This document shows positions 2,866 to 63,640 of a DNA stretch of 64,000 nt, one piece after another (positions within the stretch are counted from its first letter, which is position 1; the number at the start of each line of letters is the position of its first letter). The stretch is from Bugula neritina. Taxonomy: Eukaryota > Animalia > Bryozoa. The DNA lies in assembly GCA_964035545.1 (NCBI GenBank), contig OZ037772.1, forward strand, positions 4,654,233-4,718,232, read 5' to 3'. The notes beneath the pieces were generated by a model. That model ran no database searches, was not told the DNA's origin, and saw nothing but the letters and a program-made list of their open reading frames with translations. The position numbers and the translations under genes are program-made.

Positions 2866-3127
<262 letters not shown>

Positions 3128-3949: not shown

Positions 3950-3969
3950 TTGAGATATAAATATATATA

Positions 3970-4004
<35 letters not shown>

Positions 4005-4743
4005 CAGTACTATATAAGTAATGTGTGTGGCCTTTTTATGTACTCCAACTGATTGAACCTAACTTCTCAAATAAAATACAATTTACAAAACAACTTCATC
4101 TCACGCAGGTCATATATGCACAATATATCTAGTTGATTGCCTCATATAATCTTAATTAGCTTTCTGAGTGCACGGCAAGAAAAGCTGTTGTATAGACAGG
4201 GATATAATGTATATTATATATCATGAATAATTGAAATGAACTTGCTTAAAGTCATGTTGGAGTTACTTGCACCTGTGTGGTAATCCACTGAATAAGTTCG
4301 TCTACAGACAAGTTATTTACAACTTCTGGTCCAGCAGAGAAGGCTTTTAGCAACCAGACTTACATGTAACTTGAACGGAAGCTAATTAGGTGTAAGAACA
4401 GAATAAAACTTTTGCTAACGCAAATAAGCTGTATATTAGATAGTAGAATAGCAACACAACTTTGATATGGTAAAATATGTTGTATAAATTTCATTACTGA
4501 TAATTAACATATTATAATAATGCATATAAGCAGTGCAATTTCTGTTGAGTATATAATAATATACAGAAATATAATTACGATGTGAATGATATACACATTA
4601 TAATATACTTGACACTATCATGAGTGTGTGTATTGGTGAATTCTCTAGAATAAAATTATATACAGTCAGTGATCACAAATATTATCCATTTTATGTCCCA
4701 GTACCTCACTGAGCTGATTATTAGTAAACTGTAGCTGATAAAT

Positions 4744-11378
<6,635 letters not shown>

Positions 11379-11477
11379 TATACTTTGCAAATGCTCTAAG
11401 AAAACAAGTTTCAATTGAAGTTATGAGGTAAACACCATTATATTTACAAGCAATCTTTATTTGGTTATACAAATTGC

Positions 11478-15557: not shown

Positions 15558-26879
<11,322 letters not shown>

Positions 26880-29800: not shown

Positions 29801-30302
29801 CACATTGATTGAAAAATTGTATTTTATTGTAGTTTTATATAATAAATATTTGTGCGTTTATATTTGCATACATAATTGATAGTTTTGCAACTGATAATTA
29901 AACTCTTGCAAAAAACGTAATAAATGAGTTTTTTGTAAGCAAAAAAACAATGTCCCTTTGATTATAAGTTTATAGTTCAATGGTAACACACTAAAATATG
30001 AATTACCAATACATTTCAAAAAAGTCAAATGCAACAGATTTTCTCTAAAATTGCTACCAGAGCCTTATAAAATGTATATGTTAATGCTTGCTGAAATTAT
30101 TATGATACTCTTTTCTAGAGGTTATTATTTACTGGCAGTACCATTGTGTAACGCAAAATACACGTAATTATAGAAATAATGACATTAGCCATTAATAGAA
30201 AAGTTTCACTATTTCAATATTTCTAAACTTTTACACCATGGTTAAAGCAACTCAAGGATCATGTCACCCTATCTTCCAATTAGTATTGTAATTGAATTAT
30301 AT

Positions 30303-33287: not shown

Positions 33288-34297
33288 TTGAAATATATAA
33301 TATGTCTTTACACTCACCGTTTTTAACCTATAATAGCTGTCTTTGCAAACTTAGCATCGAGAAAATTTTTTAGTATTTGGGTTAGCTTGAATTATTGATT
33401 TACTGAATTTGCCCAACAAGCAGATTACTACAGTCATGTTTGAACTTTTTGTAATTTATTCAGAGTGACCTATACTGTATATGACATTATAGGGATTCAT
33501 CCCACTCAATAAACTTATCTTCTTTAAGCAGAGACTGTTGCACTTTGCACTGGAGAAAAACATTCAATTGGAGTTATCTTTTCTTGGTAAACTTTAAAAA
33601 ATGTATATTTTCTTTATCAGAGAATAATTATTTATTTGTAGATAAAGAGAATAAAAATACCGCACCTGGAAATTGCCTTCTCTCTTGCAGTACCAAAACC
33701 TTAAATGTTAATTAGCCAGATTCTCACAATATCCCAATAACTATCACAAATGAGACTAGAGAGTCACGTAACTTGTTGTATTATGTTTTCACGAATGAAC
33801 ACACTCTATTATGAAATATTCTGATGACTGTACACATAAGACATGTCAGTAAAATATTTGGTAAATTAGTATGTTTAGACATATATTTAGGTAAATTATA
33901 CCAAGGGGCAGCCTTTGCCTAATGGCCTAGTAAACTTAAAATCAAGGGATTGAGTCCAAACACTGGCAGCGGTGTTAGAAATAGCATCAAATCACAGTCT
34001 TACGACGCAACAAGCTTTTTGAAAGATTTCTTATCACAGGTTCTCACAGGGGTAGCAACTAAAAATTACTTAAAAGTTTGTTACAGCAAGTTTTGGCTGT
34101 TCTATATAGAACTAAACTATAATACTGATCAAAGTGTAAGGATACCGTAAGTGAAATGTGTATGTCTTTAGAATAATGAGTGTGTGTGCTGATAAATCAA
34201 AATACATATTGCATATATACATTCTAGGAATACAAATAGTTTCCAATTCATATCTCAGTGCTTCTGATTGACTGTTACAAAGCTGTTGACGACAATC

Positions 34298-37200
34298 TCA
34301 GCATTGTATGGTGTATTTCTTGAGACCGTCTATACCACTTGCTAAAAACACAATGTTCCTGTTATACACAGCAATGTCCTTCACCCAGCTTCTCACATCT
34401 AGAGTTCGTCTAGGAATCCTAAGCACCAGTTGACCTGTAAATAGAAGCATCATATTGTATCAGTTTGGTTTGTATTGGGAAGAAATTGGTAGAGCTCTTT
34501 CAAGCAGACTAGCGTGTTACAGTTAGATTTTGCCAATCAGTAGTTTACTGAGCTTCATGGTTTTTTTGTTTGCGTCATTGTAACCAATCTTCGTTACTTC
34601 GAGCCGAGCCGATACCTGGATTACAGTAAATAGAAACACCTTTGTTATGACTACTGCACTATTACATTATATGTAATCTATGCATGAACAAAGGTTGCTT
34701 GCAGCTAGTTATTGAAACCACTAAACTGAAACTTTATTAGTTATAGTTCAATGATTGAAACAAAGAACTATATACCTACACTGCTCATGCATGGAAGTGA
34801 GTAAATTTGCAAATAGATGACATTGAAGGAAAGCTACATGTTTCTATGCAATCCATAAAAAGTTGTCTTTTCTTAAAAAAGACAACTTGTTTTCAATTGC
34901 GGCATGTTACTTTCAAATGTAAGTTGACATGATCGACATTGGCTCAGTGCTACAGCCCTATGATAATTTTACTACTGTATCTCCTACAACTTTTGCTAGA
35001 ATAAATTCACATAAGAGATAAATACTTTGAGTCAGTTTTTTCTCTAATTTGAAAATCGAAAACTATATATTAAAGCGTATATTATCTTATGACTCTTAAA
35101 CAAAATTTGAAGAGCAGATTAAACTTTCAATATGAAAATAGTTCTCATCATAGAAATGCTTTGGCTTACAGAAACGCTTAATGGATTTAAGATAATCAGT
35201 TATCATGATCTTAAATATTAGCGGCTAAGATAAATAAAAGAATTTAGATCATTATAGAATGAGCTGCATTTTAGTGTAGGTTTTAACTTATAGTTATCGT
35301 TTATATCTGCGGTAATTATGTAACTAGCCGCCACAAACACTGATCTTTGCTTTCATCGCAAACGGTTTTATTTGATTCAATTGAAAGACTCGTTTTCAAG
35401 CTGTGCATAATGTGAATGGAATTTTCTTCCGTAGGAACCATTATAAAGTATTGCAGTTGCCGCTTTTCTTCAATGCAACTATTTCCATGAGGTGAATAAA
35501 AAACTTATTTGCATGACTCAAAACATGGAGGCGTCGTGCTAAACATATTTAATGTTTACCTTCAAGTGAGAGAATGAGGAGAGGTCCTAGGGCTGTACAA
35601 ATGTGAATTAGTTCAGATGTTGAATCAAAGGAAATACCAGTTGGTTGTGGAATGCTAGGAAACTCCCACAGTTTAGTGAGAGTTGTGTTCTCCACTTTAT
35701 ATCTACTCACTGCACCATCTAAACTCCTGTCTCCAATGAGTACAGTTGAGTCTGGAAGGATACATAGAGGTCTAGGGTCTTCCATCTCAGGGACTTCAAA
35801 TTTCTGTGTCGTATCGTCAACTAAATTAACGACCACAAGCCGTTTTTCTCTATAGTCCAAAATATACACTTGTGAAAGGTGCTGAGCTATTCTATAGAAA
35901 GTAGGGATACTTATTAGGTGTCTATAGAGGGTTCGAGACTTCTCAAAAGTGTTTTGATCAAGAAGTGTGACCTCGGCTGTGTTATCGTCTACATTATAAC
36001 AGCTTCCAACCACAACTCCTTTTGGTTGGATTATTTCAGTCCATATCGTCGTGGTGGTATCATCAACTGTGCTAATAGTATCGAAAGTGGTTCTATTGAT
36101 TACTTCTACAGCTTCCTTTCTGCGACACATCATATTTCCATCAGCCTTGATGTTCACCGTTCTACACCAGCCCCTTTTTTGAAGTGTATCAGACTGTAGA
36201 GAGGTCGGAGGTTGCAGCAGCTTCAGTCCTAGGCTGTCTTCACTAACTGCAACGCAAAAATAACAATTCTATAATTTGAGAATCTCATCACCTTTGTTTA
36301 TTCAGTCATACACCTCAGCTTATACTGACGGCAGGAAATCATCATAACACAGTTTAGGAGCTCACTTAGACATTATATACTGCTAATCTAAAGTTGGCAT
36401 GCTATTTATAGTTAGTGTTAGTATTTATAGACTCCACCTACATGTGGGTACCAAGATGCTGTCTGGAAGTACACACTTCTCTATTACACCAATATCTGTA
36501 GCCTTTTCCATCTTCTCACTCATCTCTTTGTAGTCTCTCACAATCCCTGCATCATTGAACTTATCAACTGCATGTTGTACTGTGTCCAGCAAAAACTGTC
36601 TGCTCATTGTCTTACTCAAGGCTAGCTCAATTCTATAATTATCCACTATCTGTGTGCAGCTTTTCAAATATCCATATATTTCTAGCCTCAAGTTTGTAGC
36701 TCTCTTTCTAATCTCTGCTATCTAGTAAATAGTAACAAATTATAACCACATCTACACCTCACAACACTTGAAATAAAGCATGACTTCTGACTGACTATCC
36801 ACTGACTGGGCACACAGTAACTTAGTCATGTAATACATCACACCACACATATCCTCCTGTCAATCAATAACATATTAAACTTTGCTGAATAAATAGTTGA
36901 CAAATCCAGATGGAAAACTTTTTCACCGAGTAAGTGGTCATGGTAAATGTCCACAATGTAATAATAATTTAATAAATTTTGCAATCTGGCTGTACATGTA
37001 TGGTATAGGTAAAAATGGCACAGTAAAATAGAACAGGTAATAATAGAACAGGTAATAACGGCACAAATGGGAACGCAGGTAAATATCGCAAATTTTCAAG
37101 ATTTAGGCTTGAGTGCCGAGGTTAGTGGTAGGGGTAGAAGTTTGTGGCTATATGAGTTGGAATTGAGAGTTTGGGTTTGGACTCTGATGTTTGGGGTTGG

Positions 37201-40200
37201 GCAAATCTAACATCAGTGTGCCATTTTTAGCAAATTTTCAATTGTGCCATTTTTACCCCTGTTGTTTTTGCGTTGCGCTGTTTTTCCGGTTTCATCCCAG
37301 ATAGACTAATTACAGTTAGACGCTTCCCACTTGGACGCTTTCCACATGAATGCTTCCCAATCAAACGCTATTTTTTGTTTTGTTACAATATAGGTATATC
37401 GAAATATACCTATATACGTACCTACATAATTGTTGTATGGATTGCTGATTATAAGATAAAAACTAATATAAATTTTATGAAATAGGATTTTAACACTCAC
37501 AGATATGTGTGGGACAAAAAGAACCGCATTAAATTATTAATACACATTATTTTTAATGAGTACTTGTTTACAAAATATCTTTTCAAACAACAATTGAAGT
37601 ATAGAAAATGTAAAATTATCAAGTTAATGGGGATCAAAGAAATTTATTTATGTGCTAAATACCAAGCAATTGATCCAAGTTAATTTAAATATACATATAA
37701 TTCAATAATATACAAATAAAGTGCACACAAAATGCATATTATACTAAAACAAACAAATAGCCTCTAGCTGGAAAGCGCTCATGTGGGAAGCATCTAAGTT
37801 GGAAATTTAGTTTAGCATCTAACTGGGAAGCGCCGATCTGGGACGCCACTGTTTTTCCCAAGCCAGTTCTACCTAATATATGTCAGCATACCTGAGCATC
37901 AGCTACAGCGTTTACTCTGGCAACCATCTTCTTCACTTCATCTTCTATTTTATTCAGTTCTTTCCAGGCATCCTTTGAGATGTCATTCAACTCTGCAACT
38001 TTCTCAGACAGAGTCTCTATTCCACCAGCCAGAGTTTCTCGTAATTCACAAGACAGATCAGTCAAAGGTGCCGTGTCATTGAACGCCAATTCATGTTCTG
38101 TACAAATAGGTTTACTAGGTCAACAAATCAGTCTCATTTTATAAATGATAGCATATTTATTGCACATCTACTACCTATAAATATATCATGTTGATGCTGT
38201 AACACCCACAACCAATTGAACTCTGATTGCCTTACCTCAATTCTTATCAAAATGGGTTATGAAGAGGCTTAACAAAAATTAACTGATGATTTTGCGCAGG
38301 ATTTCCCTGTTTATTTTCATGTAAAGAGATAAACCAAGTGCATACCTGTTTTACCTTTACAGCTTGTCTTCATATCACATCTCCTACAGAATATCTGGTG
38401 ACACTTGGAACACACTTCTGTTAGTTGTTCATGTTTATGATGTTCACATTCAGTGATAGTATATCTCTGTGGAGAGGCTCTGTATACATCAATGTCAATA
38501 AACTGATGTCTATCTCCCATCAGCTCTTTGTGATTCTGTATAAAAAGTCCACAATCAGTTGGTAAAGGTTTTACCATTATTTTTGTCATAGTTGAACCAT
38601 GCACAGCATCCAGAAAACTTTGTGCTTGACATCGAAAGTTCCACAAACTTATAACATTTCTGCTTAAAAGTATTCCACACACAAACAGACCTAGCTGGTT
38701 TATTAACCAATTTTAGAAGAAGTTTTAGAAAATAAAAACAGACTTACTTCTTGATGCTGCTGACACAGCTTTTTTTGACTCTCAACACAGAACACAGCAG
38801 CTTCTGTTCCACTTTTACAAGCATCGCAGCGAATGGGTGCAGGTTTGGGTGAAGATTTATATTCTAAGGGGTCTCCATACGGAGCTACTGGTAGTGTTGT
38901 GGGATCTGTTATGTCATAGTGATCTTTTCTACAATATATAGCAATCAGTATGTTACCTGTGTTAGCTGTGTGTAGTATATCTCAAGTAATAAGATACCCC
39001 ATCCACACACACAACTATGTCCTTGACAAATACTCAAATAAATACTCATCACTCGACATCAACAAACATTCATTATATAAACCACAGGATATCACACAAA
39101 CACACATCACAGGGAAGGGGTGCAGGTTTAGGTGGAGATTTATATTCTAAGGGTCACCATGTTTAGCTACAGGCAGAGTTGTGGGATCTGTGATGTTTTT
39201 CCTAAATTACATTGTTTAGTATTATTTAGTGTCGGGTAGCACACCATCGCACATTTATGTTAAACATCTAGTATGATATAAGCGTATTCTTTCTAAATGA
39301 GAGCTAGTACTTGAAGATTTATATACATTTTGAGGCTACAATCACCATCATATAAAATATCATGTATAAAGCATATTCTACTTGTCTGTCGTGACCACTA
39401 ATGCGTAGATAATGTTGCTCACTGCTGTATATCAAGTATATCAAGTATGATGCAGCTAAAGCAGGCAAATGCTTCTACACATGAATAAAATAAGCAGCAG
39501 GTTTTTAAATGTGCATTACCATTGTAGTGACTGCACAAATATTGGCAGTTTTCTTAATTAATGGTAGATAATGAGAAACTACTTCTATAATTGTCACATA
39601 TTACCTAAAGTTTTGCCAACTGTAAACCCTAACAACAGTATCTTTGATCTTAACATCGTGCACTTACAGCATAGCTTTACATTAACCGTCACCACCTTGT
39701 AATCTTATCCAATCAGCAACAAGAAGTATATATGTACATATAAGTATTGAATTGCTGTAGTATCAGCCATTTTCACAAATGTCTGAGCTTCCTGTACGGT
39801 GCTACGGTGCGTTAGGATCAAACACTACTTGATTCAAAGTTTTTTGCGGTGGGTTTCTATTGGACAGAAAAAACTTTGCGTCAGCTCATTGAATAAAATT
39901 GTCCAATGAAATGTTTTATATTTTACCTAATAGCGGTTTTTGTAAACCTCAGCCCGGACAAATTAAAGATAGCTGATATTTTACATTACGGCGTACGATA
40001 CAGCGATGTGTGAACATGGGGTTAATTAGTTGCCTAACATTATCTCAATTTTTTAGTTGGTATATATAGGTAGCATTAAAGACAAATAGTTTAATTAATG
40101 ATAACATATTTATATTTTCATTCTAGCTCCTTCTAACAAATCAATAATATTTTGATAGCTTTAGTTCTGTAAAACGAAAGGTTAGCAGCATCTTTAGTCT

Positions 40201-40890
40201 CTGCCGTTATTGCTATATTGACTACAAGTTTGTTTAGTTGCAAATTCAAGCTTATGCAATTCTAATTATAATCTATTGGCGTAATTTTGTCAGCTGGACA
40301 TCAAAGCAAGAAAGCAAGATGAAGAGAAGAAGTTTAACGGCAGCCACTAATAAGCCAGGTTATGCATAATTTCTGTATTGCATGTGCATTGCATGAAAAG
40401 TAAATAATCTTTGCATTCAAGCATTATAATATTATATAAAAACAATTATTTTTTATCCCTAAATTGCCTAAAAGCATTTATATTGCAGATACATCATTCA
40501 GCATAACAATAGCCACTACTGCCTTCTTAACCAAATAACGTTCATAAACCTAACAACATAATAACTATAGTTTACATAAAATATACAGAAATGTTAAATC
40601 TTCAGATATAGAAATCAGGCAACTCCTAGATAAATACCAAGGCTATTAGTGAAAAACTATTTATCTGAGCCTCCCATATGATATATAAAATTGTGTACTT
40701 TAACTCACCTACAATAAGCACATCTGATATGATCCTTCCTACCACCGATGTCAGTCTTCAAACATCTCATGCAGTAGACATGCAGACATGGCAGAGTTCT
40801 GGGGTCTTCAAGTTTGTTGAAGTACTGCAAGCAATACCCACAGCGATATGAATTGTTTAGTCTTTTTTTCACAACTCTGGATTCTGCCAT
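34298..40890 (-). CDS. TRIM-like E3 ligase (RING, 2 B-boxes, coiled coil, NHL-like propeller), paralog 3, 620 aa
   Basis: Exons 40890-40709, 38928-38748, 38535-38346, 38097-37892, 36721-36442, 36246-35560, 34434-34298. GT-AG introns, frame open. Ends ...LKKYTIQC*. Confidence 0.88.
37005..37875. mobile_element. Foldback-type MITE (family of 8172-8587) in intron 4 of paralog 3, with a nested MITE
   Basis: GGTAAAAATGGCACAG units, a GT-rich core and inverted TGTGCCATTTTT units. Ends approximate. Confidence 0.65.
37288..37849. mobile_element. Mutator-type MITE with 9-bp TSD
   Basis: GGTTTCATCCCAGATAGAC...GATCTGGGACGCCAC. TSD TGTTTTTCC at 37279-37287 and 37850-37858. Confidence 0.85.
39101..39201 (-). 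pseudogene. Degenerate duplicate of TRIM exon 2 within intron 1 of paralog 3
   Basis: Aligns to the ITDPTTLPVA...LEYKSPPKPAP.PCDVC coding sequence with small deletions. The acceptor is kept and the 3' third with the donor is lost. Confidence 0.8.
39766..40021. mobile_element. Small TIR MITE, Harbinger-like ends
   Basis: CCATTTTCACAAATG...CGATGTGTGAACATGG imperfect TIR around a CpG-richer core. Confidence 0.5.
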
Positions 40891-46705: not shown

Positions 46706-49700
46706 TTAGTATTTGATTGTGTATTTCCTCAGTCCATCTCTACTTGCTAGAAACACTGTGTCTTTGTTATACACAGCGACATCAACCACCAAGCGATTAA
46801 GACCAATACTTTCTTTAGACACTCTAAGCACCAGTTGACCTTGAATAACATCATTATATTGTACCAGTTGGTGTGCATTGAGAGAAAACAGATTTCCTTT
46901 AGAAAGAGCATAAAACAGATAATATTAAAAATAATGAAATTTATTCAGCAGCTACACTGTTTTATTCTTCTTGCTATTAGTGCAAACACATTTAGATGCC
47001 AATTAACTAAACTTACTACAATAAACATGTTAAATGTATACCTTCAAGTGAGAGAATAAGGAGAGGTCCTGTGCCTGAGCAGATGTGAATCAGTTCAGAT
47101 GTTGACTCAAAAGAAATGCCAGTTGGTTCTGGGATGTGTGGAAACTCCCACATTTGAGTGAGAGTTGTGTTCTCCACTTTATATCTTCTCACTGCACCAT
47201 CTTCAGTGTGGTCCCCTATAAGGATACTTGAGTCTGGGAGAATGCATACAGGTTGAGGGTCCTGCATATTGGGAACTGGCAGCTTTTGTATTTTATAGTC
47301 AACTAAATCACACACTACCAGCTCTTTTTCTCTACTGTCTACAACATACACTAAAGATTGACGTTGAGCTATTCTATAATAAGTGGGTACATCTGCAAAC
47401 TGTGTATAGAGAGACTGAGACTTCTCTAAGGAAATCGGATCAAGAAGCATGACTTCAGCTAACTTTTGTTTCCAGTTATAACAGCTGGCAACTACTACCC
47501 CTTCAGGTTGTATAATCTCTCCCCAACCCGTAGTGTAGGTGTGTTTCACTGCGCTGATGGTATTCAGTGTGTCTCTACTTATTGCTTTTATACTTTCTTG
47601 TGTTCCACACATCAAATGTCCATCGACTGTGGCATTCACTGTGTAGCACCCTCCATGCAAAAGCAGTCCATCAGATTGTAGAGAAGATGGTGGTTGCAGC
47701 AGCTTCAGGCCCAAACTGTTTTCACTGACTGCAACAATCAAGTATAATGATCTTATATATTGATAATCTAATCCAAATCAAAGTACTTGCAGGGGTCAAT
47801 ATAACCTCAGATGGCACTCAACATATAATATACAATTTAAACTAATTGCTGAAATGTGAGGCAGAGATCTAAATAGCAGGATTTTATTAATAATAAAAGA
47901 AAGTATAATAGTCAACAAAACAGTGCTTTATAGCAACTATTATAGCTTATACACAGTGGTAAACCATGAAGTACTGCAAAATTGATAAACAACGTGAGAG
48001 TAGCACACAACTCAATCATTTCAGGAATATCTACTGTGGTCTTGAGATTACCCATTAGCCTCTGTAGTCTTCTGGCTTGCAAACTAGAGGTCTGAGGTTT
48101 GAATCTTAGCATGGGAAATATTATTTTACAAGCCATTTTGACTTTTAGTGAAGTTATAGAGTATTCTAAGGGAGTTGAGAGTTTAAGGAAGCCTGAAGAC
48201 TGAAAGAACAGTAGGGAGGCCAGTTGAACTTGAGTGAAATAGAAAAGATTTAGGGTTGAGATAACCCAGCAGCTTGATTTGTTAGGAGTGGTTTGCATGA
48301 TAGTTAGAACACCAAAAGTCTGCGGTCTGTATTCCAGTTGAGGGAAAGTTATGTTGCATCAACCTTAAACTGCAGCCACTTTCTTTAATACTCTACTGAA
48401 GTTTCTCTTTGCGTTTTATATTTCATAAATATTTGAAAAACACCGTTGAGTGTATGTTAAGCTGACAAGTATTTATAAGTATATATTGCTTTTAATATTC
48501 GTACTCCACCTACATGTTGGTACCAAGATGCTGTCTGGAAGTACGCACTCCTTTATTACACCAATATGTGTAGCCTTTTCCATTTTCTCACTCCACACTT
48601 TATAGTTTCTTACAATTTCTGCATCATTGACCTTGTCAGCTGCATTTTTTACTGTGTCCAGCAAAGACTGTCTGCCCATTGTCTTGCTCAAGGCAATGTC
48701 AATTTTATAGTTATCCACTATCTGTGTGCAGGTTTTCAAATATCCATATATTTCTAGCCTCAGGTTTGTAGCTCTCTTTCTAATCTCTTCTATCTAATAG
48801 ATAGTAACACAGTATATTTACATCTGCACCTCACAACTTCTGCATTTAAAATAAAATTGGGTCATTTTAATTAATTTAGTACACACTGAAAGTCTCCACT
48901 TTTTAGCTATTTTTCGCAATTTAGCTTTTAACGAATATGGGTTTTTGCCGAAAACTAGTTAATTATCACTAAATACACCTAAAAAATCAAGGTGCTTTTT
49001 GATTTTGCATGCTTGACTTCCTTTATATATTGATTGCAGACCGTCACAAGAAATTAGACAGCAGCTGCACAAGAATATTTGAATCATATTTTTGGTAAGC
49101 TGAGCTACACGTGAGCTACACATGAAGAATGGCTGCTTTGTTAACAGTAAGGTTCTGATTACAATCAAAAATTAATTTGCACACAAAACTATTTCAGACA
49201 AATAATCGATAAGCTTACCTGAGCATCAGCTACAGCATTTACTCTGGCAACCATCTTCTTCACTTCATCTTCTATTTTACTCAGTTCTTTCCAGGCACCC
49301 TTTGAGATGTCATTCAACTCTGCAACTTTCTTAGTTAAGGTTTCCATTTCATTAGTTAGACATTTTCGTAACTCACAAGACAAATCACTAAGAGATGTGA
49401 TGTCATGGAATGCTGCTTTCGTTTCTAAAAGTAACCGCACAAGAGTCAGTGAATTAATATCATCATATAACATAATATTAAACTTTTAGTGCATCTTATA
49501 CTAGTTATAAAAACAGGGAACAACTTATGTTTTATACACATCCTATGTAATTACTAAACCCTTGAATTCTGTCAATAAAGTGTTGTTTTTAGCTTTGATC
49601 ACAACCCACTCTTCAACAGCAGTGATTAACAAAATGGAACATTCTAGAACAATGTCACTACATATATTCACTGCAGTTCAAATTACGAAGATATGAACAA

Positions 49701-51195
49701 ATAGTAAAAACAATTTTTATAACAGCTCTTTAGAGAAATATAATAAAAACTCAAGTGATCAATGAGGTATTTTATATATTTAATGTAACAGTAGCAATAT
49801 AAACCTTTTCTGTCCTACTCAATACTTATATTGCTGAGGATAGTTGAGGCTGTACACCTTAAGTTTATGAAACATGAGACTAAGTTTAAGTATTCATGAC
49901 AGTTTAATCTGTGAAAATGTTTTTGACTTCGCCGTTTCCTAGCTGTTACATGACAGACAAATAATAAGCTTCTGCTTGACGATTATTAGTTTTTCTTTAT
50001 ACAAACAGAGATAGTAACTATATACCTGTATTATTTTTACAATCAGTCCTCATATCACATCTCATACAGAATATCTGGTGACACTTGGAACACACTTCTG
50101 TCAGCTGTTGATGTTTATGATGTTCACATTCAGTTAGAGTATATCTTTGGGGAGAAGCTCTGTAGACCTCAATGTCAATAAACTGATGTCTATCTCCCAT
50201 CAACTCCTTGTGGTTCTGAATAATAAATATCAACAGTTCAAATGCTAAAACTTGTATTATTGAGAAAATCATGTGTTAAGTTGCATTTATCTTTCACGAT
50301 TTTCAGTCAAAAATTAAATTTGGCACAGTTGAAATTTCAACGAGTTGCATCACGTTGTAAAAGCCATTCCTCAAAATTGTTACATGTACTGTGATTACTG
50401 AGTCAGCTAATTTTAGAATAATAACCAAACAAAATAATAACTCCTTGTAGTTATTGGTATAATGTGACTTTAGAGACAAAATGACATACTTAAACAGCAA
50501 TAAATAAGGCTTCAGCAATTAAACTATAAAAACTTCATGTTTATAAGTGTGTGATTTACACTATCTGCTATCAACTTTAACAATTCATCACGTTTTTTAA
50601 GTGCATAAAGTAGCGATTAACAGAGTCATTATCCACAATTAAAACTTGAGATTTTGCATTTATATAGTTTCAACAAGTTTCAGTAAAACTGTAACGATGT
50701 GTGAGATTAACTGAAGCTGGGAACTTTTCTCAGCAGAAGTATGAACCAAAACTTTGGCAAAAACATTTGCACAAACTCAAAAGATTTTTGCTCAATCTTA
50801 TTCCACACACAACAGAACAGATTTAAAAGCAATCCTTAGACAAAATTCTAGAAAAGACTCACATCTTGATGACGTTGACACAGTTTCTTCTCACTCTCAA
50901 CACAGAACACGGCAGCTTCTGTTGTATCTTTACACACATCACAGGGAATGGGTGCAGGTTTGGGTAAATATTTGTATCCTAAAGAGTCACCATACTGAGC
51001 TACTGGCAGAGTTGTGGGATCTGTGATGTCATAAAATTTTTTCCTAGAATATATTGTTCAGTGTTTAAGCTGTGTATAGTACAATTAGTATAATATTTAT
51101 AACAAAATCATATCTTAAGTACGTATAATGAAAAACCTTCACTTTAACACACGTGCATATAACTACTTTGTCGACATCAAAACCTCTAGGAAATG

Positions 51196-51264
<69 letters not shown>

Positions 51265-52270
51265 TAAATAGTCACTAATAATAAAGATAACATCAACTGT
51301 TATTCATATTGTTGAAAGGACAGGATTACAAATTGACAGCTTTGGTGATAACATAATATGTCAATAACGATGCATAAAGTATTGACTTTGACTCATAATC
51401 ACATGAAAAAAAGATTAAACACATTGCCAGATAATTAATTATGATTCATGAGTTATGTATACTGAAACAATTCGACTCAACACAATTGAGTAATGGTAGA
51501 AGAAGGAACCAACTTGTCATATAGCTAAAGAAACACCAAATTTGCAGAGTTTACTATGCAGTGATTAGCAAACAAATACTATTGCACCAAACTACTGCCT
51601 ACCAGCTCTATATTATAATATATTCTGCCACAAAGTTCTCACACACTGCTGTATTTTATTAGTGGAGAAACTTTTGTTTTCTTGTGCTATAATGCAAACA
51701 ATATCCACTACATACTACATATCACGTACTATTCCTTTCACAATGACAACAGCATTCAACTACATAGCCGTGTGAATGGAAATGTAACAGAAAAAAGGCA
51801 CCATAAGATATATTACTCCATGAGCAAGAAATGAAAAGACAACCTTAAGTTCACGAGACACCACAGCACCACAATCGTACAAGGGAGTACAACTCATAGT
51901 AAATCTACAAAACAATTGTAGTGTTTTCCTTTCAATTGCCACACAGACACTCAAAAACTTTGTAACCAGAGTTTAGGTAAAATATGCAATGTTTGCTCTT
52001 CAAAGATACGGATCAGACAACTCCTAGACGATAGGAGTGACAAAAGCAGATGTAAATCTATGAAAGTACATTATATACTGTAACTCACCTACAATAAGCA
52101 CATCTAATATGATCCTTCCTACCACCAATGTCAGTCTTCAAACATCTCATGCAGTACACATGCAGACAGGGCAGAGTTCTGGGGTCTTCAAGTTTGTTGA
52201 AGTACTGCAAACAGTACCCACAGCGATACGAATTGTTGAGGCTCCTTCTCACAACTCTTGACTCTGCCAT
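46706..52270 (-). CDS. TRIM-like E3 ligase (RING, 2 B-boxes, coiled coil, NHL-like propeller), paralog 4, 619 aa
   Basis: Exons 52270-52089, 51043-50863, 50215-50026, 49424-49219, 48793-48514, 47728-47042, 46839-46706. GT-AG introns, frame open. The last intron is only 202 bp. Confidence 0.88.
50278..50754. mobile_element. Decayed TIR MITE (family of 60012-60460) in intron 2 of paralog 4
   Basis: AAGTTGCATTTATCTTTCACGATTTTCAGTCAAAA... is colinear with 60012 onward. It explains the enlarged intron 2. Confidence 0.75.
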
Positions 52271-53007
52271 TGGAACTAGATCTAAGTACTTGTCAGTGTT
52301 AAGTCTGCGTTACTTGTCAGTCAAGGAATTATCACAACTGTGAATACTTTATAAGTTACCCTGCAGGAAGAACTGAGGTTGACATGACATGTTGAGTCAT
52401 ATGACATGCAGTAGCCAGTTATGTTTAGCTTATAGGGAAGTGCAATTGCAGTTTCTACATTGTAGTGTTAGTCAGAATGATAGTGCTTGATGACTATTGC
52501 ATACATGGTAGGCTATAGCCTGCATTTGATTCAGGAACTAATTATAGTTATATCAGTTATACATAGTTTTCTCTTCTGTCATAAGATACAGTGCTGCTGT
52601 TATCAATCAAGTTAGGCTTTTTGTAACTCAAACAAGTTAGTTTTTCAAGTATATTCAGCATATGTGTTGTTGTTATTAAAACTCTGTTCCACTAATACAC
52701 TATAAAATAAAATTATTTGATAATTGCCAAATAGATCATGTTTCTTATAGAATACAATCATTTTCTGTTTAATGCTTCATTAAATAAAAAAGGAACTTTG
52801 GCATGTTGTTTTCGAGAAATTTATTGAGTCACATAACTCTATGTTCTTAGCAAAAAGGAATTTGTCTGCTCAGTTGACAAGTAAAGAAAAATGAACTATT
52901 ACAATGTTGAGTATTTATTTACTCTCGCATGCTTCATGCCTGTGTACATTTCATCATTCATATACTTATCAGTTCTATATGTTTGCATAACCACATAATG
53001 TTATTAT

Positions 53008-54393: not shown

Positions 54394-54421
54394 TTTATTT
54401 ATGTTATATTTGTGTTTTATT
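54394..54421 (-). terminator. Two AATAAA polyadenylation signals of the cationic peptide gene
   Basis: AATAAA on the minus strand at 54421-54416 and 54399-54394, about 115-140 nt past the stop. Weak evidence in AT-rich DNA. Confidence 0.5.
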
Positions 54422-54536: not shown

Positions 54537-56135
54537 TTAACTCCTTTTTTGATCTCGCCTTCTGCTAATTCTGTTCCTCACGTTTGACCTAGTTCTGGCC
54601 CTGATTCTATCCGCTCTACTCCTGGGAGCCCCAAGTCTTTCTGTAAGAACTGGTCTTCTTCCAATAACTACCGGCCCTTTGTTTCTACATCTGACAGCTC
54701 TACCTCTACATCCTACAATACAATATAGAAACTTAGCTTGAGCAATAATGGCATGAAAACGCTGAGCCTTGACAGATTATATATTATAGGATTATCTTGA
54801 TGAGCCTAGGCTTATATGCTTGATTTGTATTTTTCTTAATCCAGTGTATAATCTGAGATAATACTTTAAGCACTCTTACTATAATTATCATGCCATTTAG
54901 GCAGATGCAGAGTTAATATGATCAAAGCTGAAATCAAGAACTATTTGCAACAAAATAGGAAAATGAGCCAATTTATTTAAAATGATGAATTTCTTAGAAA
55001 AAAAGAACAAATTTAAGTTGTTTTGTTTAGAAAAACAGTTTTTGGGCTCTGGTAACTTGGCAGTGAGAGATTATCATTGATGTCAAACATGCATTATGCT
55101 TTATGCATACATAGGCTAGAGTCTTGTAAAGCTTAATTATTGTCGAGGCACTTGGTTAGCAATATTAAATGCAAAGATAGTCATCGAAATAGAGAAATGA
55201 TTGCCAATTGGCAAATAATTTTTGAAAAGTTTTTGGTGTTTAAATAAAACTTTTGTCGGTTTAAATATATTTACAGCAATTGTTATGAATATCTGTATAC
55301 TAATAAGGGCAAGCAGTATATTTCAATTGGCAAATGGGGCAATCATAAAATCATTGAAGCTTGAAAATTCAAAACAATACCATGCCCTTCTGTTGAAGCT
55401 GTGAATTTTTTTACAACTTGTTTGTGTTATAATGAGATCACTGCTAATACTTTGATAAAACAATAAAGCATATGATTAGCTCATTATGGTGTCATTAGGT
55501 CAGTTGAGTGAAGATATACATGAGCTGATATTTAGATGTTCCAGTTGTAAGTAACATATTATATACGATTTTATTGCATGTATCCTATTTCTACATATAG
55601 TTTGCAAAATAGATGTGATTGTTGCAGAAGAAAAACTTTGCAGCCTTACTTAGCTGTATTATTTGTTATAATATTTACAACTAATATATAATCACCTACA
55701 GTATTATATGTATAGCAGATAATTTTATATACATCTGTATAGTATATTATAAATTATACATGTAGTATATTATACACAATTAGTATATTATCAATATTTA
55801 GTATATCATCTACATCTGATACATCTGCATTCTATACAGTGTCTTTTATAAAATGTCTACAAAGCCAGTGATGATACAAATATATTTGCTCAATCAACAA
55901 CACTTGACTTATATATACTCACAATATTAGGCTGTCATACCGGCAACTCCATATTCTAATATGCACATTACATATATACAAGTATAATATTTGTACATAT
56001 ACTTTACGTTCTGTGCACTATGGTTTCATACAGAGATGAATTATTCAACTTACTACTTCTATTAGAATGAGCCAAGTCAACCAATAAGGCAAAGCACAGC
56101 ATAGCCAGGAAGATGGTAAACAAGATGCTTCTCAT
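54537..56135 (-). CDS. Secreted Arg-rich cationic peptide precursor, 85 aa (candidate antimicrobial peptide)
   Basis: Coding exons 56135-56054 (donor A|GTAAGT) and 54712-54537 (acceptor TTGTAG|GA) join in phase 1. Product: MRSILFTIFLAMLCFALLVDLAHS-NRSRCRGRAVRCRNKGPVVIGRRPVLTERLGAPRSRADRIRARTRSNVRNRISRRRDQKRS*. An acceptor lies 2 nt before the ATG, and an upstream non-coding exon ends at 56345 (CAG|GTAAGA). Confidence 0.78.
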
Positions 56136-56249
56136 TGCTAGGAATATGGTTCAAATCTGTTTATTCTACAAAGTAAAAATCATAAAAGCAAATATAGGAG
56201 TCTGCTTATGTGTTTATTTCATATAAAATGCTTTCCAAACACACGCAGA

Positions 56250-56322
56250 AACACACACACACACGCACACGCACACGCACACGCACACGCACACGCGCAC
56301 ACACACACACACACACACACAC
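56250..56322. repeat. (CA)n/(CACACG)n microsatellite in intron 1 of the peptide gene
   Basis: Seen directly. Confidence 0.93.
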
Positions 56323-56344
56323 AGAGCATAAATTAACGTCTTAC

Positions 56345-56401
56345 CTGTATGCAGGAACGACAGCTGTGGTCTTAGCCCTGTAAAGTTTCTTCAGTTTTAT
56401 A
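56345..56401 (-). promoter_or_regulatory. TATA box and short non-coding first exon of the cationic peptide gene
   Basis: TATAAAA at 56401-56395. Predicted TSS near 56370. Strong donor immediately after 56345. Confidence 0.55.
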
Positions 56402-59400
56402 TCAAGCTTTTCAGTTCATTTATAATATTTCCTGTAGTAATGGAGGAAGTAAAGATTAAACTAATAAAACCACATCTGCAGGAACTTAATAATTAGCCTT
56501 GAAATGGATTAAGCAGAGAATCAGAACTTGCTCAGCTATGAAATCTCATCAAAAGCTACATTATACCACAACCATCATGTAATCATGTTATTTATTATAA
56601 AACCTGAGTCTGTGTATCACATTTCCTAAACTAAGATGTTTTAAAACTTGCTAGCATGAACGCTAGTCTATTATCTATCAGGGTAGTCCAAAATATATTT
56701 GTGTGGCGCAAAATTCACTAGAGTGGTCTAGGATCTAGCATGGATTGGCCCAGTACTCCATAGCCTAGAGTGGTCTATGTACTATAGGGTTTGATCGGGT
56801 GATGCAGGGTCTGATCGAGCATGCCCAAAACTTATGTAATAGAATGGTCCAAGATATCATAGAGTTATCCAGTATTTTATAGAGTAGCGTAAAATCTGTA
56901 AAGCTAATCTAGGCCGTTTGGGAGGCTGGACCAGTTCCAAGTATGCTGGCGCAAATCCTAAATAGATAAACAGATAAAGATGCAATTTCTTTAAACTACA
57001 AACCATTTATATTTTGCGGTTTGAAGTTGTCTTCTTTTATTTTCTGCATTATGATTGACTTAACAGTTATATAAATATTGAACATCATAACTAATTAGTT
57101 CCCAATGCAGCTCTAAAAGGCATTATTATATGTTTTGCCAAACATTTATTTTTCTCTAAAACTTTGCTTCAAGACCATCTACAGTAAAATGGAGGTTATC
57201 TGCCCTTGTTTGTATCAAACTTCATAGGGTACATATAAGAGATAATTTTTAATAAAGATTATATTAACTGATTTCTTTCTTCATTTTTTTAGGAATACTT
57301 TCATTGCTTAGAAAATGTTTAAAATATTTCTCCCTCAGAGTCTTACCCTAGCGGAAAAATATTAAATTTTTATAATTACAGTATAGTACAAGCCACAAAA
57401 ACAAACATACAAATAAACAAACAAATAAACTAAAAATATATACATAACATGTAAAAGACAGTTAGAGTTATGGAATAAATATCAGTATATGCGATATTTC
57501 CTTATAAGATTTTTGCAAAGTAAATATATTTTATACTGGTTTCAAAGTACATGAGAAACAAGCCTGCATGATTACTCTCTTTGTCTAACACCTGTGCCTG
57601 TAGTAAATGTTTAGAAAAGTTGATCGAAAATATGCCCTATATTACTGGCCAGGGCACTTAGTTGTAAAAAAAAATTTAATCATCTAACCTTGCTATAAAA
57701 TATTATGTAGTTTGCCTCTATAAATACATGGGCTTATGACTTCTTTTAAACAGTCTTAAATAAAATGATGATGCGCTTCCTTAGAGATATACACAGGTTG
57801 AGAGGGTCCAAATGAGCCCATGGCTTGGCTCTCTCATGGTCCATGAGACCTTCAGGCTATCTAACATAATAGATGTACCATGTTGTCAACGGAATAACAT
57901 ATTCCAATGCATGCATGTAATATGCACTTTAAAAGTGTTTTATAGTAGCATAGAATAGTAGAGTAGGCGATAAAAAGATAACGACTAGTATAATCATCAT
58001 AGTTTAATTGATACACTAGCTAACTGCTTATTATACAATACAACAAAGTGTAGTATAGGACATAAAATATAATTAGTGAGATACGACAGAACACACAAAT
58101 AGAACACCGAATGCGTTCTCTACAAAATTATTTTAAAAGAACCTTGCTGCTGGTCGTATTTTTTTCGTGCAATTTTTCCCAATACAGGTTTTTAGCATTA
58201 GATGAAAATCTTTTAATGCAACCTATACATTTCAACATATTACAAGGCAGCGGCAGCTGGCCATAGGATATGTAATGACCCACAACATTGGAGATTGCTA
58301 TTACAGGCAGTGCTGGGCAGCTATAAGGTGAACTTTGTAAAATATATATTAGTTTTAGAGAGAAGACAACTACAAATACATGTAGTTAAAGAGACAAATG
58401 CTGAAAGTGCTATTTACATAATGGCACACTGCATATTAATGTTGTGAAAGAAGTAACACCAGTTGCGTTATTGAAGTCATGATCACCTAAAATTGCATAA
58501 CAATTATATTATACAATTTGATTTTATTAAATTACAGTTGAAGTATATTTCTCTCGCTTCTATAAAAAAACATATGATAGTATTGACTTTACACAAAATT
58601 TTCAGCTATATATTACAAGTATATATGAAGTATGATTTATAACAGAAAAGCCATATAACTTGATAATATATCGAAGACTACCATCATCTATTTATGATCG
58701 TCAAAAGATATTTGATTTAGAACCTAAAGTTATTTAAGTTTAAACCTGTTGAAATCCTGGCATGCAGTCTTAGATAGTTTAATAGCTTTTAAAACCAGCA
58801 CACAAACAATTTTAAATATATTTTCTTAGTAGCATATTAGGCTAAATGAAATTTAAAAATTATAGCTGAGAAATTTGAAATTCTATTAGCTGTAATTAGT
58901 TTAACAAATCATCCAGCTATAGAGTTACAACTGCATATTTTACAGTATTCAAAATATGCAGCAAATAAAAAGTGCAGCAAAAATTTGGTGTGATAAATCA
59001 CTATGTTGCTAAAGGATTTCTTCGGTCTGGAAAGCTCAGGCTACAGCTTTTAATTTTGGTAATAGAGAAGACAACTTATAAAGTGCATTGCAAAACTTGG
59101 TTATCTTTTGAAAACAGCAAAGTTTTATTTAATGTGTTTGCAATACAATTGAACTTTTTATCTACATACAATAAATGAAAAAATATTATTAATCTGATTG
59201 ATATTATTAATATTATTAATATAAATGCTACTTCAAGTAAACTTATCAAAAATTATAAAACTGTAGAGTAAAAATAGAAAAGATGGAACTTTTAATGTAC
59301 ATTATCGGCATCAATTTTAATTTAGGTTTTAATGAAAAATCAATCCTTTGATCAAAATTGAGGTTTCTTTGTAATTTTCTAAAAGTTTCAAGATTAAAAA

Positions 59401-60011
59401 TATATTGAATATAAAAGCAATTATGAAAATACAGCATAAAATTATTCTAATAGTCATATGTGTGCCTTTGAAACCTATAAATATAAAGCAAACATTTGTG
59501 TGACACTTGTGGTCTTCTATTTTATAGTGATCAGTTGTGGTGTCTTGCTAAAATGGGTGCTGCACCAAAATTTATTATTATTTTTCAGTTTTTTATTGAC
59601 ATGCTGAAGAAAATTCCAAGCAAATTTAGCAATCCAACAAAATGAATGAATTGGTCGATGACATGTTAGACAGTGAAGCCATGAGTAAACACTTAATGAC
59701 TCCTAAATTTTTTTTGTCTATTAGCATATTGTGGGGCAAGCAACTCTTACTGCCAAATTTCAAATTACACTTTATGTGGTAAAAAAACCCTAACCCTGGG
59801 CTGTTTCACTAGGTTCTGACATATACAGAGCTCACAGGCTACAGAATTATTTCATTATAAGCTGCTTTGAGTTAGGAGTAATTGATTGCAGCTGGTTTAG
59901 GATTTTCAAGTTTGAAGTTGGGGTTTAAATTGGAAATTGGAACTCCCAATTCCTAACTCAAGAATTCTAAACTATTCTACACTCCATCACCCCAAGTGAG
60001 AGCTGCTTGTA

Positions 60012-60460
60012 AAGTTGCGTTTATACCTTCACGATTTTCGGTCAAAATTTCAATTTGGCCGGGTTGAAATTTCTCCGAGTTGCATTGCATTGTAAAAGCC
60101 ACTCGTTGAAATTTTTGTACTGTGATAACTTAATCGGCCAATTTTAGAATAGGAGTAATAACTCCTTGTAAACATCGTTATTTAGTTATCACTTTGGCGA
60201 TTAGACAACGTACTTATACGGTTATAATTATATAGCCTACGCCTTCTCAATTATCGCTTTTATGCTTTCCGCTTCACTAATTCACGACGTTTACAATGGG
60301 CATCAAATAGCTATTATGCGAGTCAAATTTCAATTTCAGAAAGTGAGCAACTGCATCAATATGATTTCAACGAGTTTAAGTTTGACTATAAAGGGGTACC
60401 CGGACAAGCGTTATTAACTTAAACTCGGTACTTTTTTCAGCAGAGGTATAAACGCAACTT
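60012..60460. mobile_element. TIR MITE, possibly Kolobok-type
   Basis: Perfect 17-bp TIR AAGTTGCGTTTATACCT/AGGTATAAACGCAACTT in a TTAA-like context. A second copy starts at 50278. Confidence 0.8.
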
Positions 60461-62048: not shown

Positions 62049-63640
62049 TTAGTTAGCATCAACATGTTCAACAATTTCTAGTCCATGAATTTCTAACTCA
62101 TAGATGTTTAGATTAGCATTCACTTCAACAGCTGTTACTCTCACATATCTACCATACATTCTAGTATGACATGTAACCAGAAATATATCTGCAGGTGGTT
62201 GTCCAGGAAGGTAGTCACAGATCTCATCTTCTGGTGGATCATCAAAGTTAGTGTCAGTTTTACCAACTGTTACTCTCACATTGGCCAGTCTGTCATTGTT
62301 AACTATAAAATCAATTGACATATAAGGGACTTCAATAAACAAAGTCAAATAATTAGTGAAAAAAAACAGGATTTTTCACTATTCAAATAGCATATAATTA
62401 TTGTTAGTATTGCAATCATCTATAGTTTGCCATTGAACACACAAAAATTAACATAAAAATTTTTAAAGCAGACATGCAGAATGTAATTATATATAAACTG
62501 TAAGTCAAACACTTTTACTGACTCACATTGGCTTGCACTCTCAGATCTGTCCCATATTTTCACACCATTGATCAAATGATTGATGAGTAAGTCTATTTGC
62601 AACCATGGAGACAGCTCTTGCTGAGTGGCTAATAAACTTTCTTCTTCTCTCAAGCCAAAGTCAGATGGAATATAAATCCCATCAATAGCCTTGAGACCTG
62701 AAGAGTCTGCATCATATGTGCTACTCGTTGTAGCTATTTTACCTGAAAATCATCAGACAAGCAGAAATGATAACACCATATGAGGCGCTGGCATGCGTTG
62801 CATAGTTTTTACATAATTTTGTTTATGAAATTTGTGCTATAGAAGCTATCAACTTGTCTTATTACTACGCTAGCATTATTTCTAGCTTCTCTATATTTGT
62901 TTGTAAATGCTTATAGCTCAATTTAGAGTAATCGAATGACCCTCTTCACCTTTAGCAAGATTGGTAGAAGAGCCATAAACAGTCAGCTGCTCAGAGTACA
63001 TCTTCTTAACAGAACTCAGTCTACTAGTCTGCTCTGTGTTGATTATCACTTCTGGTTTATCAGACAGGAAACAGGTTGATGTATTCTTGTCATATGACAC
63101 AGCAACACATGACTGGTTACAGGAGCAGAGGGACAGACAGGATTCATGACTAGAAGTGATTCTATGTTGGTAGTTTGTTGTCACATCAGAAAAGTTCTGG
63201 GCTAGAAAAATATTCTCACCTAAAACAAATAAATATAACCAATATCAGCTGTGTTCTATTGATGCACATAATTGATTCATATATAATTAGTTTAATCTTC
63301 AATATTTTTCAATAAGCACCCACATTTCTTAAGTACACAAAATGAGGTTTATAATTACTATATAGCATTATCTTTTAAACAATTTAGGCAATTCTGCGCT
63401 TTAGAATTAACTATGAATTACATGTTATTTACTTGTGAATAAAGATATCTTTATAAAGTAAACCATATCTCCTGAGGTTCCTTCTTCCAGCTCCACTGGG
63501 GGCTCACTGAAAAGTCTACAGGTTTTGGTTGCTGGTTCAAAGACACCAGCTTGACACTGACTTTGGTGGAAGCTACACTGAGTCATACATTCTAGAGTAG
63601 AACGAGCTGCAATAAAACAATTTTTTTGCAAAGTTATAAC
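62049..63640 (-). CDS. PAN/apple, PAN/apple, F-type lectin (fucolectin-like) domain protein, 5'-partial
   Basis: Exons 63640-63433, 63219-62950, 62742-62527, 62302-62049, GT-AG with phases 1,1,1. PAN motifs ECMTQC...C...F...TKTCRL and SCLSLC...CVAVSY...TCFLS. F-type lectin motifs NLAKGKIATTSST...KAIDG...SPWLQIDL...GRYVRV...ELEIHG. Upstream exons lie beyond the window. Confidence 0.82.

What the first reader, a model, noticed from the sequence alone, without database searches (positions are those of the whole stretch)
54537..56401. Hidden 3-exon gene for a secreted, highly cationic Arg-rich peptide (candidate new antimicrobial peptide)
Seen, and absent from the ORF track: a TATA box, a short non-coding exon, an exon encoding a typical signal peptide (MRS, hydrophobic core, AHS), a phase-1 intron, a GC-richer terminal exon and AATAAA signals. 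The predicted 61-aa mature region has 21 Arg and 2 Lys against 3 acidic residues (net about +20) and one Cys pair (C-RGRAVR-C). A G-RR site suggests a possible amidated 20-mer, NRSRCRGRAVRCRNKGPVVI-NH2, plus a second Arg-rich fragment. Known: signal peptide, cationic disulfide loop and amidation are hallmarks of invertebrate antimicrobial peptides. I do not recognise the family. Alternatives are a neuropeptide, toxin or adhesive/matrix protein.
Basis: partly seen in the sequence, partly recalled or inferred. Interest (0 to 1): 0.85.

Follow-up and report, generated by a model that had tools for sequence, protein, structure and literature searches.

The report
Orphan arginine-rich secreted defence peptide gene
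Strong splice and codon signals in this invertebrate genome predict a single-copy gene for a small, probably secreted protein whose mature part is one-third arginine and has no detected relatives; it is likely a new host-defence peptide, but its expression and activity are untested.

Summary
The gene model largely holds. The spliced minus-strand frame gives 85 aa: a 24-aa signal-like leader and 61 aa with 21 Arg, 2 Lys, 3 acidic residues, one C-x6-C pair and a G-R-R site. Exon 3 is coding-like beyond chance: 19 in-frame Arg codons, 0 of 20,000 shuffles. Its acceptor ranks 4 of 511 and the exon-1 donor 3 of 491. One correction: exon 2 most likely starts at 56165 (acceptor rank 1 of 511), not 56137 (rank 259); the protein is unchanged. 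A rival exon-3 acceptor 7 nt downstream would give a 39-aa product. The gene appears single-copy, has no relative in any collection searched, and lies between a TRIM-NHL cluster and a PAN/F5-8 gene. Best reading (0.55): a precursor cut at G-R-R into an amidated disulfide-loop 20-mer (+7) and a 38-mer (+11) that bind microbial surfaces or nucleic acids. Against: no aromatic residues, low hydrophobicity, no family expansion. It resembles myticalin precursors but is not one: its C-terminal extension is cationic, not anionic, and it has cysteines. Expression and activity are untested.

The parts
56395..56401 (-). TATA box candidate (TATAAAA); a second TATAAA lies at 56424-56419
   Evidence: sequence; use as promoter inferred
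56345..56375 (-). Predicted non-coding exon 1 (5' end estimated 25-30 nt after the TATA box); no ATG
   Evidence: donor CAG|GTAAGA ranks 3 of 491 GT sites in 52.4-62 kb; start site inferred
56166..56344 (-). Intron 1 (179 nt, GT..AG) holding a CA/CG microsatellite at 56239-56323
   Evidence: acceptor ranks 1 of 511; microsatellite; ends
56054..56165 (-). Exon 2: 30-nt 5' UTR, ATG at 56135, leader and first mature residues
   Evidence: CDS GC 40% against 29% in intron 2
56064..56135 (-). Predicted 24-aa signal peptide (basic n-region, hydrophobic core, A-H-S cleavage site)
   Evidence: rule-based scan; SignalP not available
56133..56150 (-). Decayed tandem copy of the start of the coding region (15 of 18 nt match 56117-56100; all three differences at third codon positions)
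54713..56053 (-). Intron 2, phase 1, 1341 nt
   Evidence: acceptor ranks 4 of 511, donor 43 of 491
54537..54712 (-). Exon 3 coding part: Arg-rich mature region and stop codon
54687..54710 (-). Cys pair, C-x6-C; predicted disulfide loop
   Evidence: bond inferred
54654..54662 (-). G-R-R: predicted convertase cleavage and amidation signal ending a 20-residue peptide (net +7)
   Evidence: processing inferred
54540..54653 (-). C-terminal 38-residue cationic segment (net +11) with many R-x-R steps and further dibasic sites
54705..54707 (-). Rival acceptor (AG ending 54706) that would shift the frame and give a 39-aa product ending K-G-R
   Evidence: ranks 8 of 511; product
54394..54421 (-). Two AATAAA polyadenylation signals (54421, 54399)

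Best explanation
The locus is likely a single-copy, lineage-restricted gene whose predicted spliced product, an 85-aa precursor with a signal-like leader and a net +20 mature part, would be secreted and likely acts as an antimicrobial host-defence peptide. Shown: the splice signals, the single open Arg-coding frame, the composition and the lack of detected relatives. Inferred: the signal peptide is removed after residue 24; a prohormone convertase cuts at G-R-R; carboxypeptidase and PAM amidate the N-terminal 20-mer, which closes a C-x6-C loop; the 38-residue C-terminal piece is released as a second polycation or trimmed at its dibasic sites. With no aromatic residues and little amphipathicity, the peptides would more likely bind LPS, teichoic acid and then nucleic acids, or destabilise membranes by charge (protamine-like or viral Arg-rich-domain-like action), than form classical amphipathic pores. 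Odds: real gene about 0.88; host defence given a real gene about 0.62.
For: Gene: exon 3 open in 1 of 6 frames with 19 Arg, 0 of 20,000 shuffles; top of 573 stop-free segments by net charge per 40 aa; Arg codons AGA 12, AGG 6, CGA 1 follow the AGA preference of neighbouring exons (AGA 24 of 38); acceptors rank 1 and 4 of 511, exon-1 donor 3 of 491; only leader-plus-strong-donor hit in the window, seen in 1 of 30 simulated windows (criteria set after seeing the target); the splice phase fits. Not a transposon piece: only the self contig covers exon 3 at 80% likeness, whereas neighbouring exons collect many copies. Function by analogy: myticalins have three exons, a non-coding exon 1, a phase-1 second intron, a dibasic site with Gly for amidation and pI above 11, and 4 of 7 tested had MICs of 2 uM or less against at least one strain (PMC5577615, passages and section 2.1). 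The 20-mer fits the length, charge and Arg enrichment of beta-hairpin AMPs, some of which have one disulfide (PMC13001179, passages). An Arg-rich viral domain peptide kills bacteria by membrane permeabilisation or DNA binding and binds lipid A (PMC3681751, abstract). Neighbours are TRIM-NHL and PAN/F5-8 genes; circumstantial only.
Against: No aromatic residues; GRAVY -1.44 for the mature part and -0.86 for the 20-mer. Only 9 of 44 18-mers pass an approximate version of the Ciona helical-AMP filter, all starting at mature positions 14-25. In Ciona, four hydrophilic cationic segments (three of them Arg-rich) had no or weak activity on E. coli (PMC7387483, passages; its supplementary figure not seen). 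Single copy, whereas myticalins and Ciona AMPs are multigene families. No NF-kB-like site in 3.1 kb upstream, about 2 expected by the window rate (weak). The exon-2 donor scores 3.3, below the weakest leave-one-out host donor, 3.8. No YTRAY branch motif near either acceptor. The single-sequence AlphaFold model of exon 3 shows no hairpin at the Cys pair (low confidence). No homologue allows a conservation test.
Confidence: 0.55

Rival explanations
1. A secreted polycation with a structural role: it would bind acidic glycans, mucus, cuticle or mineral matrix, or act in adhesion or gamete coats.
For: Net +20 with an alternating R-x-R pattern (9 of 20 Arg-Arg spacings are 2) and low hydrophobicity suit binding of polyanions; single copy.
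Against: No Tyr, His or Gly-rich repeats, which typify DOPA-type adhesives and shell proteins (recalled); a G-R-R processing site and a lone disulfide loop are typical of bioactive peptides; no classical heparin-binding motif by my pattern.
Confidence: 0.15
2. A signalling-peptide precursor: the amidated, disulfide-looped 20-mer (or, with the 54706 acceptor, a short amidated peptide from a precursor ending K-G-R) is a neuropeptide or hormone acting on a receptor.
For: Signal peptide, G-R-R and a C-x6-C ring are also neuropeptide hallmarks (recalled); the rival acceptor ranks 8 of 511 and gives a 39-aa precursor with a terminal amidation signal.
Against: No Pfam, PDB or protein-library match, though short neuropeptides often escape such searches; neuropeptide spacers are usually acidic (recalled) while every 18-mer here is net +2 or more; the 57-codon Arg periodicity only makes sense in the 54713 frame.
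Confidence: 0.1
3. A defensive or competitive cytolytic or deterrent peptide aimed at eukaryotic predators, foulers or neighbours.
For: Orphan, secreted, cationic and amidated peptides occur in invertebrate secretions (recalled).
Against: Lacks the hydrophobic or aromatic face and the multi-disulfide core of most such peptides; no family expansion; no solved-structure match at E up to 10.
Confidence: 0.07
4. Not this gene: the pieces are a chance alignment, a dead gene, or exons of a different transcript (for example with an extra internal exon).
For: No relatives anywhere searched; moderate exon-2 donor; a 39-nt frame-keeping open candidate exon exists in intron 2 (55734-55696); leader-like frames alone are common (1.5 per simulated window).
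Against: Joint signal of top-ranked splice sites, matching phase, 0 of 20,000 and 0 of 3,000 shuffle results, GC step, TATA and polyA signals in the right order; no stop or frameshift; the contigs of the one DNA run agree with the window over both coding exons.
Confidence: 0.13

Closest known systems
Myticalins and modiocalins of mussels (PMC5577615, passages and section 2.1; PMC12294457, passages)
   Same: Three exons with a non-coding exon 1 and a phase-1 second intron; signal peptide, Arg-rich mature peptide, dibasic site with Gly for amidation, C-terminal extension; pI above 11; taxonomically restricted.
   Different: Extension here is cationic (+11), not anionic; one Cys pair (myticalins lack Cys); intron 2 lies just after the signal peptide rather than after the dibasic site; single copy; not Pro-, Tyr- or Trp-rich. 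No sequence match found, but no myticalin sequence was aligned directly.
Single-disulfide loop and beta-hairpin AMPs: thanatin, arenicin-1/-2, ranacyclins, tigerinins (PMC13001179, passages)
   Same: Predicted 20-mer is within 11-25 aa, cationic, Arg-enriched, one disulfide, predicted amide; the C-x6-C spacing equals thanatin's (spacing recalled, not from a call).
   Different: Loop is N-terminal with a C-terminal tail (thanatin has a long N-terminal tail); no aromatic residues; no hairpin in the low-confidence model; no PDB sequence match; no BRICHOS pro-domain.
Ciona linear cationic helical AMPs such as KH.C7.94 (PMC7387483, passages)
   Same: Signal peptide followed by an Arg-rich cationic segment of low hydrophobicity (KH.C7.94: +11, hydrophobicity -0.03, active at 6.25 uM).
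   Different: No anionic C-terminal region (lowest 18-mer net +2); Cys pair; no aromatics; single copy.
Protamine-like and viral Arg-rich-domain antimicrobial polycations (HBc147-183, PMC3681751, abstract); amphioxus BjAMP1 (one table row of PMC12466427)
   Same: Very high Arg content, low hydrophobicity; likely LPS and nucleic-acid binding.
   Different: Protamines and the viral domain are not secreted host peptides (recalled); no sequence relation was found or directly tested.

Membership tests
Myticalins/modiocalins | Three exons, non-coding exon 1, phase-1 intron 2 | tested here: met
   predicted structure; definition
Myticalins/modiocalins | Intron 2 placed after the dibasic site, inside the extension | tested here: not met
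   intron 2 falls three codons after the leader, before the Cys pair
Myticalins/modiocalins | Anionic C-terminal extension | tested here: not met
   38-mer net +11; lowest 18-mer +2
Myticalins/modiocalins | Linear mature peptide without cysteine | tested here: not met
   two Cys; definition
Myticalins/modiocalins | Conserved signal-peptide consensus | tested here: inconclusive
   by eye a loose T-I-x-x-A..L-C likeness to the printed consensus; not scored, and common in hydrophobic leaders
Myticalins/modiocalins | Dibasic site with preceding Gly; mature pI above 11 and over 10% Arg | tested here: met
   G-R-R at 54662-54654; pI at the 12 ceiling, 34% Arg
Beta-hairpin AMPs | 11-25 residues, cationic, Arg-enriched, disulfide-cyclised | tested here: met
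   predicted 20-mer, net +7, one Cys pair; depends on inferred processing; the review's summary names two or more Cys pairs but it lists one-disulfide families
Beta-hairpin AMPs | Antiparallel beta-hairpin fold | tested here: inconclusive
   single-sequence AlphaFold of exon 3: pLDDT about 45-53 over residues 1-30, no strands
Beta-hairpin AMPs | Measured antimicrobial activity | not testable with these tools
   needs synthesis and MIC assays
Ciona-type linear cationic helical AMPs | Cationic amphipathic helical segment | tested here: inconclusive
   9 of 44 windows pass an approximate filter, all mid-sequence; the predicted helix (exon-3 residues 32-55) has negative mean hydrophobicity
Ciona-type linear cationic helical AMPs | Anionic C-terminal proregion (17 of 22 candidates) | tested here: not met
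   definition
Polychaete BRICHOS AMPs (arenicin type) | BRICHOS pro-domain before the mature peptide | tested here: not met
   85-aa precursor; no Pfam hit at E 0.1 for either coding exon
Known neuropeptide precursor families | Conserved family motif in the amidated or disulfide peptide | tested here: inconclusive
   no Pfam or library hit; no dedicated neuropeptide database; PMC4990251 seen as outline and abstract only

The most novel reading that the evidence does not exclude
Founding member of a new invertebrate AMP family with a two-warhead precursor: no acidic, charge-masking pro-piece, and one G-R-R cut releasing both an amidated disulfide-loop 20-mer and a protamine-like 38-mer that kill without aromatic residues, by binding envelope polyanions and nucleic acids. 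If the host is a bryozoan (a recalled impression, not tested), it would come from a phylum that two recent marine-AMP reviews do not mention at all (0 occurrences).
Probability: 0.25. Interest if true: 0.65.

Novelty: new variant of a known kind. Interest (0 to 1): 0.42.

Why it matters
Short orphan secreted peptides are missed by ORF callers and homology searches, so this is a concrete, cheap-to-test lead. If active, an aromatic-free, very Arg-rich peptide pair from a marine-type invertebrate would test whether pure polycations can work as natural antibiotics in salt, and whether a precursor can do without the acidic pro-piece that myticalins and most Ciona AMPs carry. If inactive, it points to an unrecognised class of secreted polycations in matrix or signalling.

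Tried and rejected
No RNA holder listed: 1 run was listed, unlabelled and behaving as genomic DNA, so splicing could not be tested; this blank is no evidence either way. No whole genome is held, so paralogues were sought only by laying that run's contigs at 85% and 80% likeness; more diverged paralogues would be missed. Homologue searches used single exons, never the whole precursor: exon 3 gave nothing in the 5.8-billion word search (31-100 aa only), 0 of 1.84 billion representatives at E 0.001, Pfam, PDB sequences at E 10, metagenome, genome and viral contigs (0 of 594, 600 and 142 pattern matches confirmed), and only 0.79 unnamed Atlas look-alikes. Exon 2 with its natural flanks gave 0 of 595. 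Within the window tblastn found no paralogue; a leader-like frame at 12058 has no donor. Rfam: 0 matches in 52.3-62 kb. The loop motif occurs in 0 papers; the term sets gave 0 papers and one search gave 2 (listing only), none about this peptide as far as titles show. Host lineage: neighbour NHL homologues are unnamed, a genome scan gave one weak bacterial match and a viral scan no locus; the lineage stays 'animal, probably lophotrochozoan'. A lag-30 self-similarity in exon 3 (0.45, best of 30 lags) was not treated as a repeat. The acceptor at 56138 was rejected in favour of 56166. No fold search was run because the model is low-confidence. Earlier-scan look-ups by place, relatives and sequence were empty.

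Full report
Setting. The window is AT-rich animal DNA with TA and CA microsatellites. It carries four minus-strand RING/B-box/coiled-coil/beta-propeller (TRIM-NHL-like) genes, an LTR element, a LINE-like remnant and, at 62-63.3 kb, exons with PAN and F5/8-type domains. The candidate sits alone between the first coding exon of the last TRIM gene (about 52.3 kb) and the PAN gene. No whole genome is held. The lineage could not be fixed: neighbour homologues are unnamed. The Atlas look-alikes of the propeller are mostly molluscan where recorded, which does not give a range. 'Probably lophotrochozoan' is inference; 'bryozoan' is only a recalled impression.

Observation. Splicing 56135-56054 to 54712-54537 gives 85 residues: a 24-residue leader and 61 residues with 21 Arg, 2 Lys, 2 Asp, 1 Glu, two Cys six residues apart and G-R-R after residue 20. 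TATAAA motifs lie at 56424 and 56401 and AATAAA at 54421 and 54399.

Is it more than chance? Exon 3 is open in 1 of 6 frames. That frame holds 19 Arg codons against 2 and 5 in the other forward frames; 0 of 20,000 dinucleotide shuffles reach 19 in any forward frame (mean best 10.2). Its codon-position bias is reached by 0 of 3,000 shuffles and by 2 of 2,128 tiles of the window, one in an NHL exon and one in AT-rich intron sequence. Its GC (46.8%) is reached by 0.5% of 171-nt windows outside the LTR element, and it is the most basic 40-residue stretch among 573 stop-free segments. Arg codons are AGA 12, AGG 6, CGA 1, in line with AGA 24 of 38 in the four NHL exons. A rule-based scan finds 2 leader-like starts in the window; only this one has a strong donor behind it, which occurred in 1 of 30 simulated windows. 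These rules were set after seeing the target; looser rules give 6 hits, this one the most hydrophobic. A weight matrix from 23 acceptors and 26 donors of the neighbouring genes (sites read off paralogues, hence redundant) ranks the exon-3 acceptor 4 of 511 and the exon-1 donor 3 of 491 in 52.4-62 kb. The exon-2 donor ranks 43 of 491 and scores below the weakest leave-one-out host donor.

Corrections. No ATG lies between them, so only the 5' UTR changes. A second AG 7 nt into exon 3 (54706) ranks 8 of 511 and would give a 39-residue product ending K-G-R. The first AG is normally preferred (established knowledge), and the Arg periodicity supports the long frame. One 39-nt open, frame-keeping candidate exon lies in intron 2 (55734-55696) and cannot be excluded. 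The 5' UTR of exon 2 is a decayed copy of the first codons: 15 of 18 bases match and all three differences are at third positions. The longer alignment beats 2,000 of 2,000 shuffles, and such a match occurs in 1 of 426 background tiles. This is a small hint that the frame has been under protein-level constraint.

Copy number and relatives. In the one run that holds the DNA (possibly the source of the window, so not independent), only the self contigs cover exons 2 and 3 at 85% and 80% likeness (depth about 127). The TRIM RING exon bin reaches about 4,400 and the PAN/F5-8 bins 440-11,000, a positive control for the method. So exon 3 is neither a transposon fragment nor part of a recent family. 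No relative of either exon was found. All searches used single exons, and short low-complexity peptides are hard to find, so 'orphan' means 'none detected'.

How it most likely works. Shown: gene signals and composition. Inferred from the secretory pathway: signal removal after residue 24, cleavage at G-R-R, trimming and amidation, giving a 20-mer (net +7, about 2.3 kDa, one disulfide) and a 38-mer (net +11, about 4.6 kDa) with further dibasic sites. There is no acidic pro-region: the lowest 18-mer is +2. Neither piece has aromatic residues; mean Fauchere-Pliska hydrophobicity is 0.06 and -0.15. A single-sequence AlphaFold model of exon 3 gives a C-terminal helix (32-55) and a disordered N-terminal half (mean pLDDT 68, pTM 0.39), which is weak evidence. 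I therefore favour charge-driven action: binding LPS or teichoic acids, destabilising or crossing the envelope and binding nucleic acids, as reported for an Arg-rich viral domain peptide (PMC3681751, abstract) and listed for amphioxus BjAMP1 (table row in PMC12466427). Confidence 0.55. Against: in Ciona four hydrophilic cationic segments showed no or weak activity (PMC7387483, passages; supplement not seen), although the similarly hydrophilic KH.C7.94, which has aromatic residues, was active. The gene is single-copy and has no NF-kB-like site upstream. Rivals are a structural polycation (0.15), a signalling peptide (0.10), a deterrent or cytolytic peptide (0.07) and a wrong or dead gene model (0.13).

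Comparison with known families. The layout works like myticalins: three exons, non-coding exon 1, phase-1 intron, dibasic site with Gly, C-terminal extension (PMC5577615, passages and section 2.1; PMC12294457, passages). It fails three defining features (anionic extension, no Cys, intron position), so it is not a member. The 20-mer fits the size, charge and Arg content of disulfide beta-hairpin AMPs (PMC13001179, passages), but the hairpin is unproven. It lacks the BRICHOS domain of polychaete AMPs and the anionic region of most Ciona AMPs. Literature searches found no description of this peptide; the library lacks most subscription journals. An earlier AI note on another genome (e1-9818638) only pointed to the Ciona paper.

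Verdict. Very probably a real, unannotated gene for a secreted polycation with no detected relatives; likely a host-defence peptide with an unusual all-cationic precursor. The general kind is well known and function is untested, so: new variant of a known kind, interest 0.42.

Noticed in passing
window 7274-11400, 18471-26880, 35549-40890, 47016-52271 (minus strand): Four tandem TRIM-like genes (RING, two B-boxes, coiled coil, single-exon NHL-like propeller); propellers only 60-65% identical to each other while RING exons are over 90% identical in DNA. Many copies in the genome; a fast-diversifying immune-like family.
   Followed up: partly
window 20615-24500: LTR retroelement (90% identical terminal repeats at 20615-20932 and 24174-24500, broken gag/pol-like frames) inside an intron of the second TRIM gene.
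   Followed up: no
window 62049-63244 (minus strand): Multi-copy gene with a PAN domain and an F5/8-type (fucolectin-like) domain.
   Followed up: partly
window 56428-56763: A stretch about 86% identical to another contig ends right at the upstream TATAAA motif of the candidate gene; a repeat or a related promoter region.
   Followed up: no
window 56100-56167: The 5' UTR of exon 2 is a decayed tandem copy of the first codons, with differences only at third positions in the best 18 bases.
   Followed up: yes
window 60010-60460: Very high-copy short interspersed element (summed depth about 154,000 against 130; many internal deletions among copies), MITE-like.
   Followed up: no
window 30300-33290 (minus strand): Degenerate LINE-like reverse-transcriptase element with frames broken by stops (identity recalled from motifs).
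   Followed up: no
window 3136-3958: Three tandem copies of a 271-bp unit, 98% identical, flanked by TA microsatellites.
   Followed up: no
P0003, P0004: Public metagenome/Logan proteins 89% and 83% identical to two of the window's TRIM propeller exons: DNA of a close relative exists in public data, yet no orthologue of the peptide exons was recovered.
   Followed up: partly
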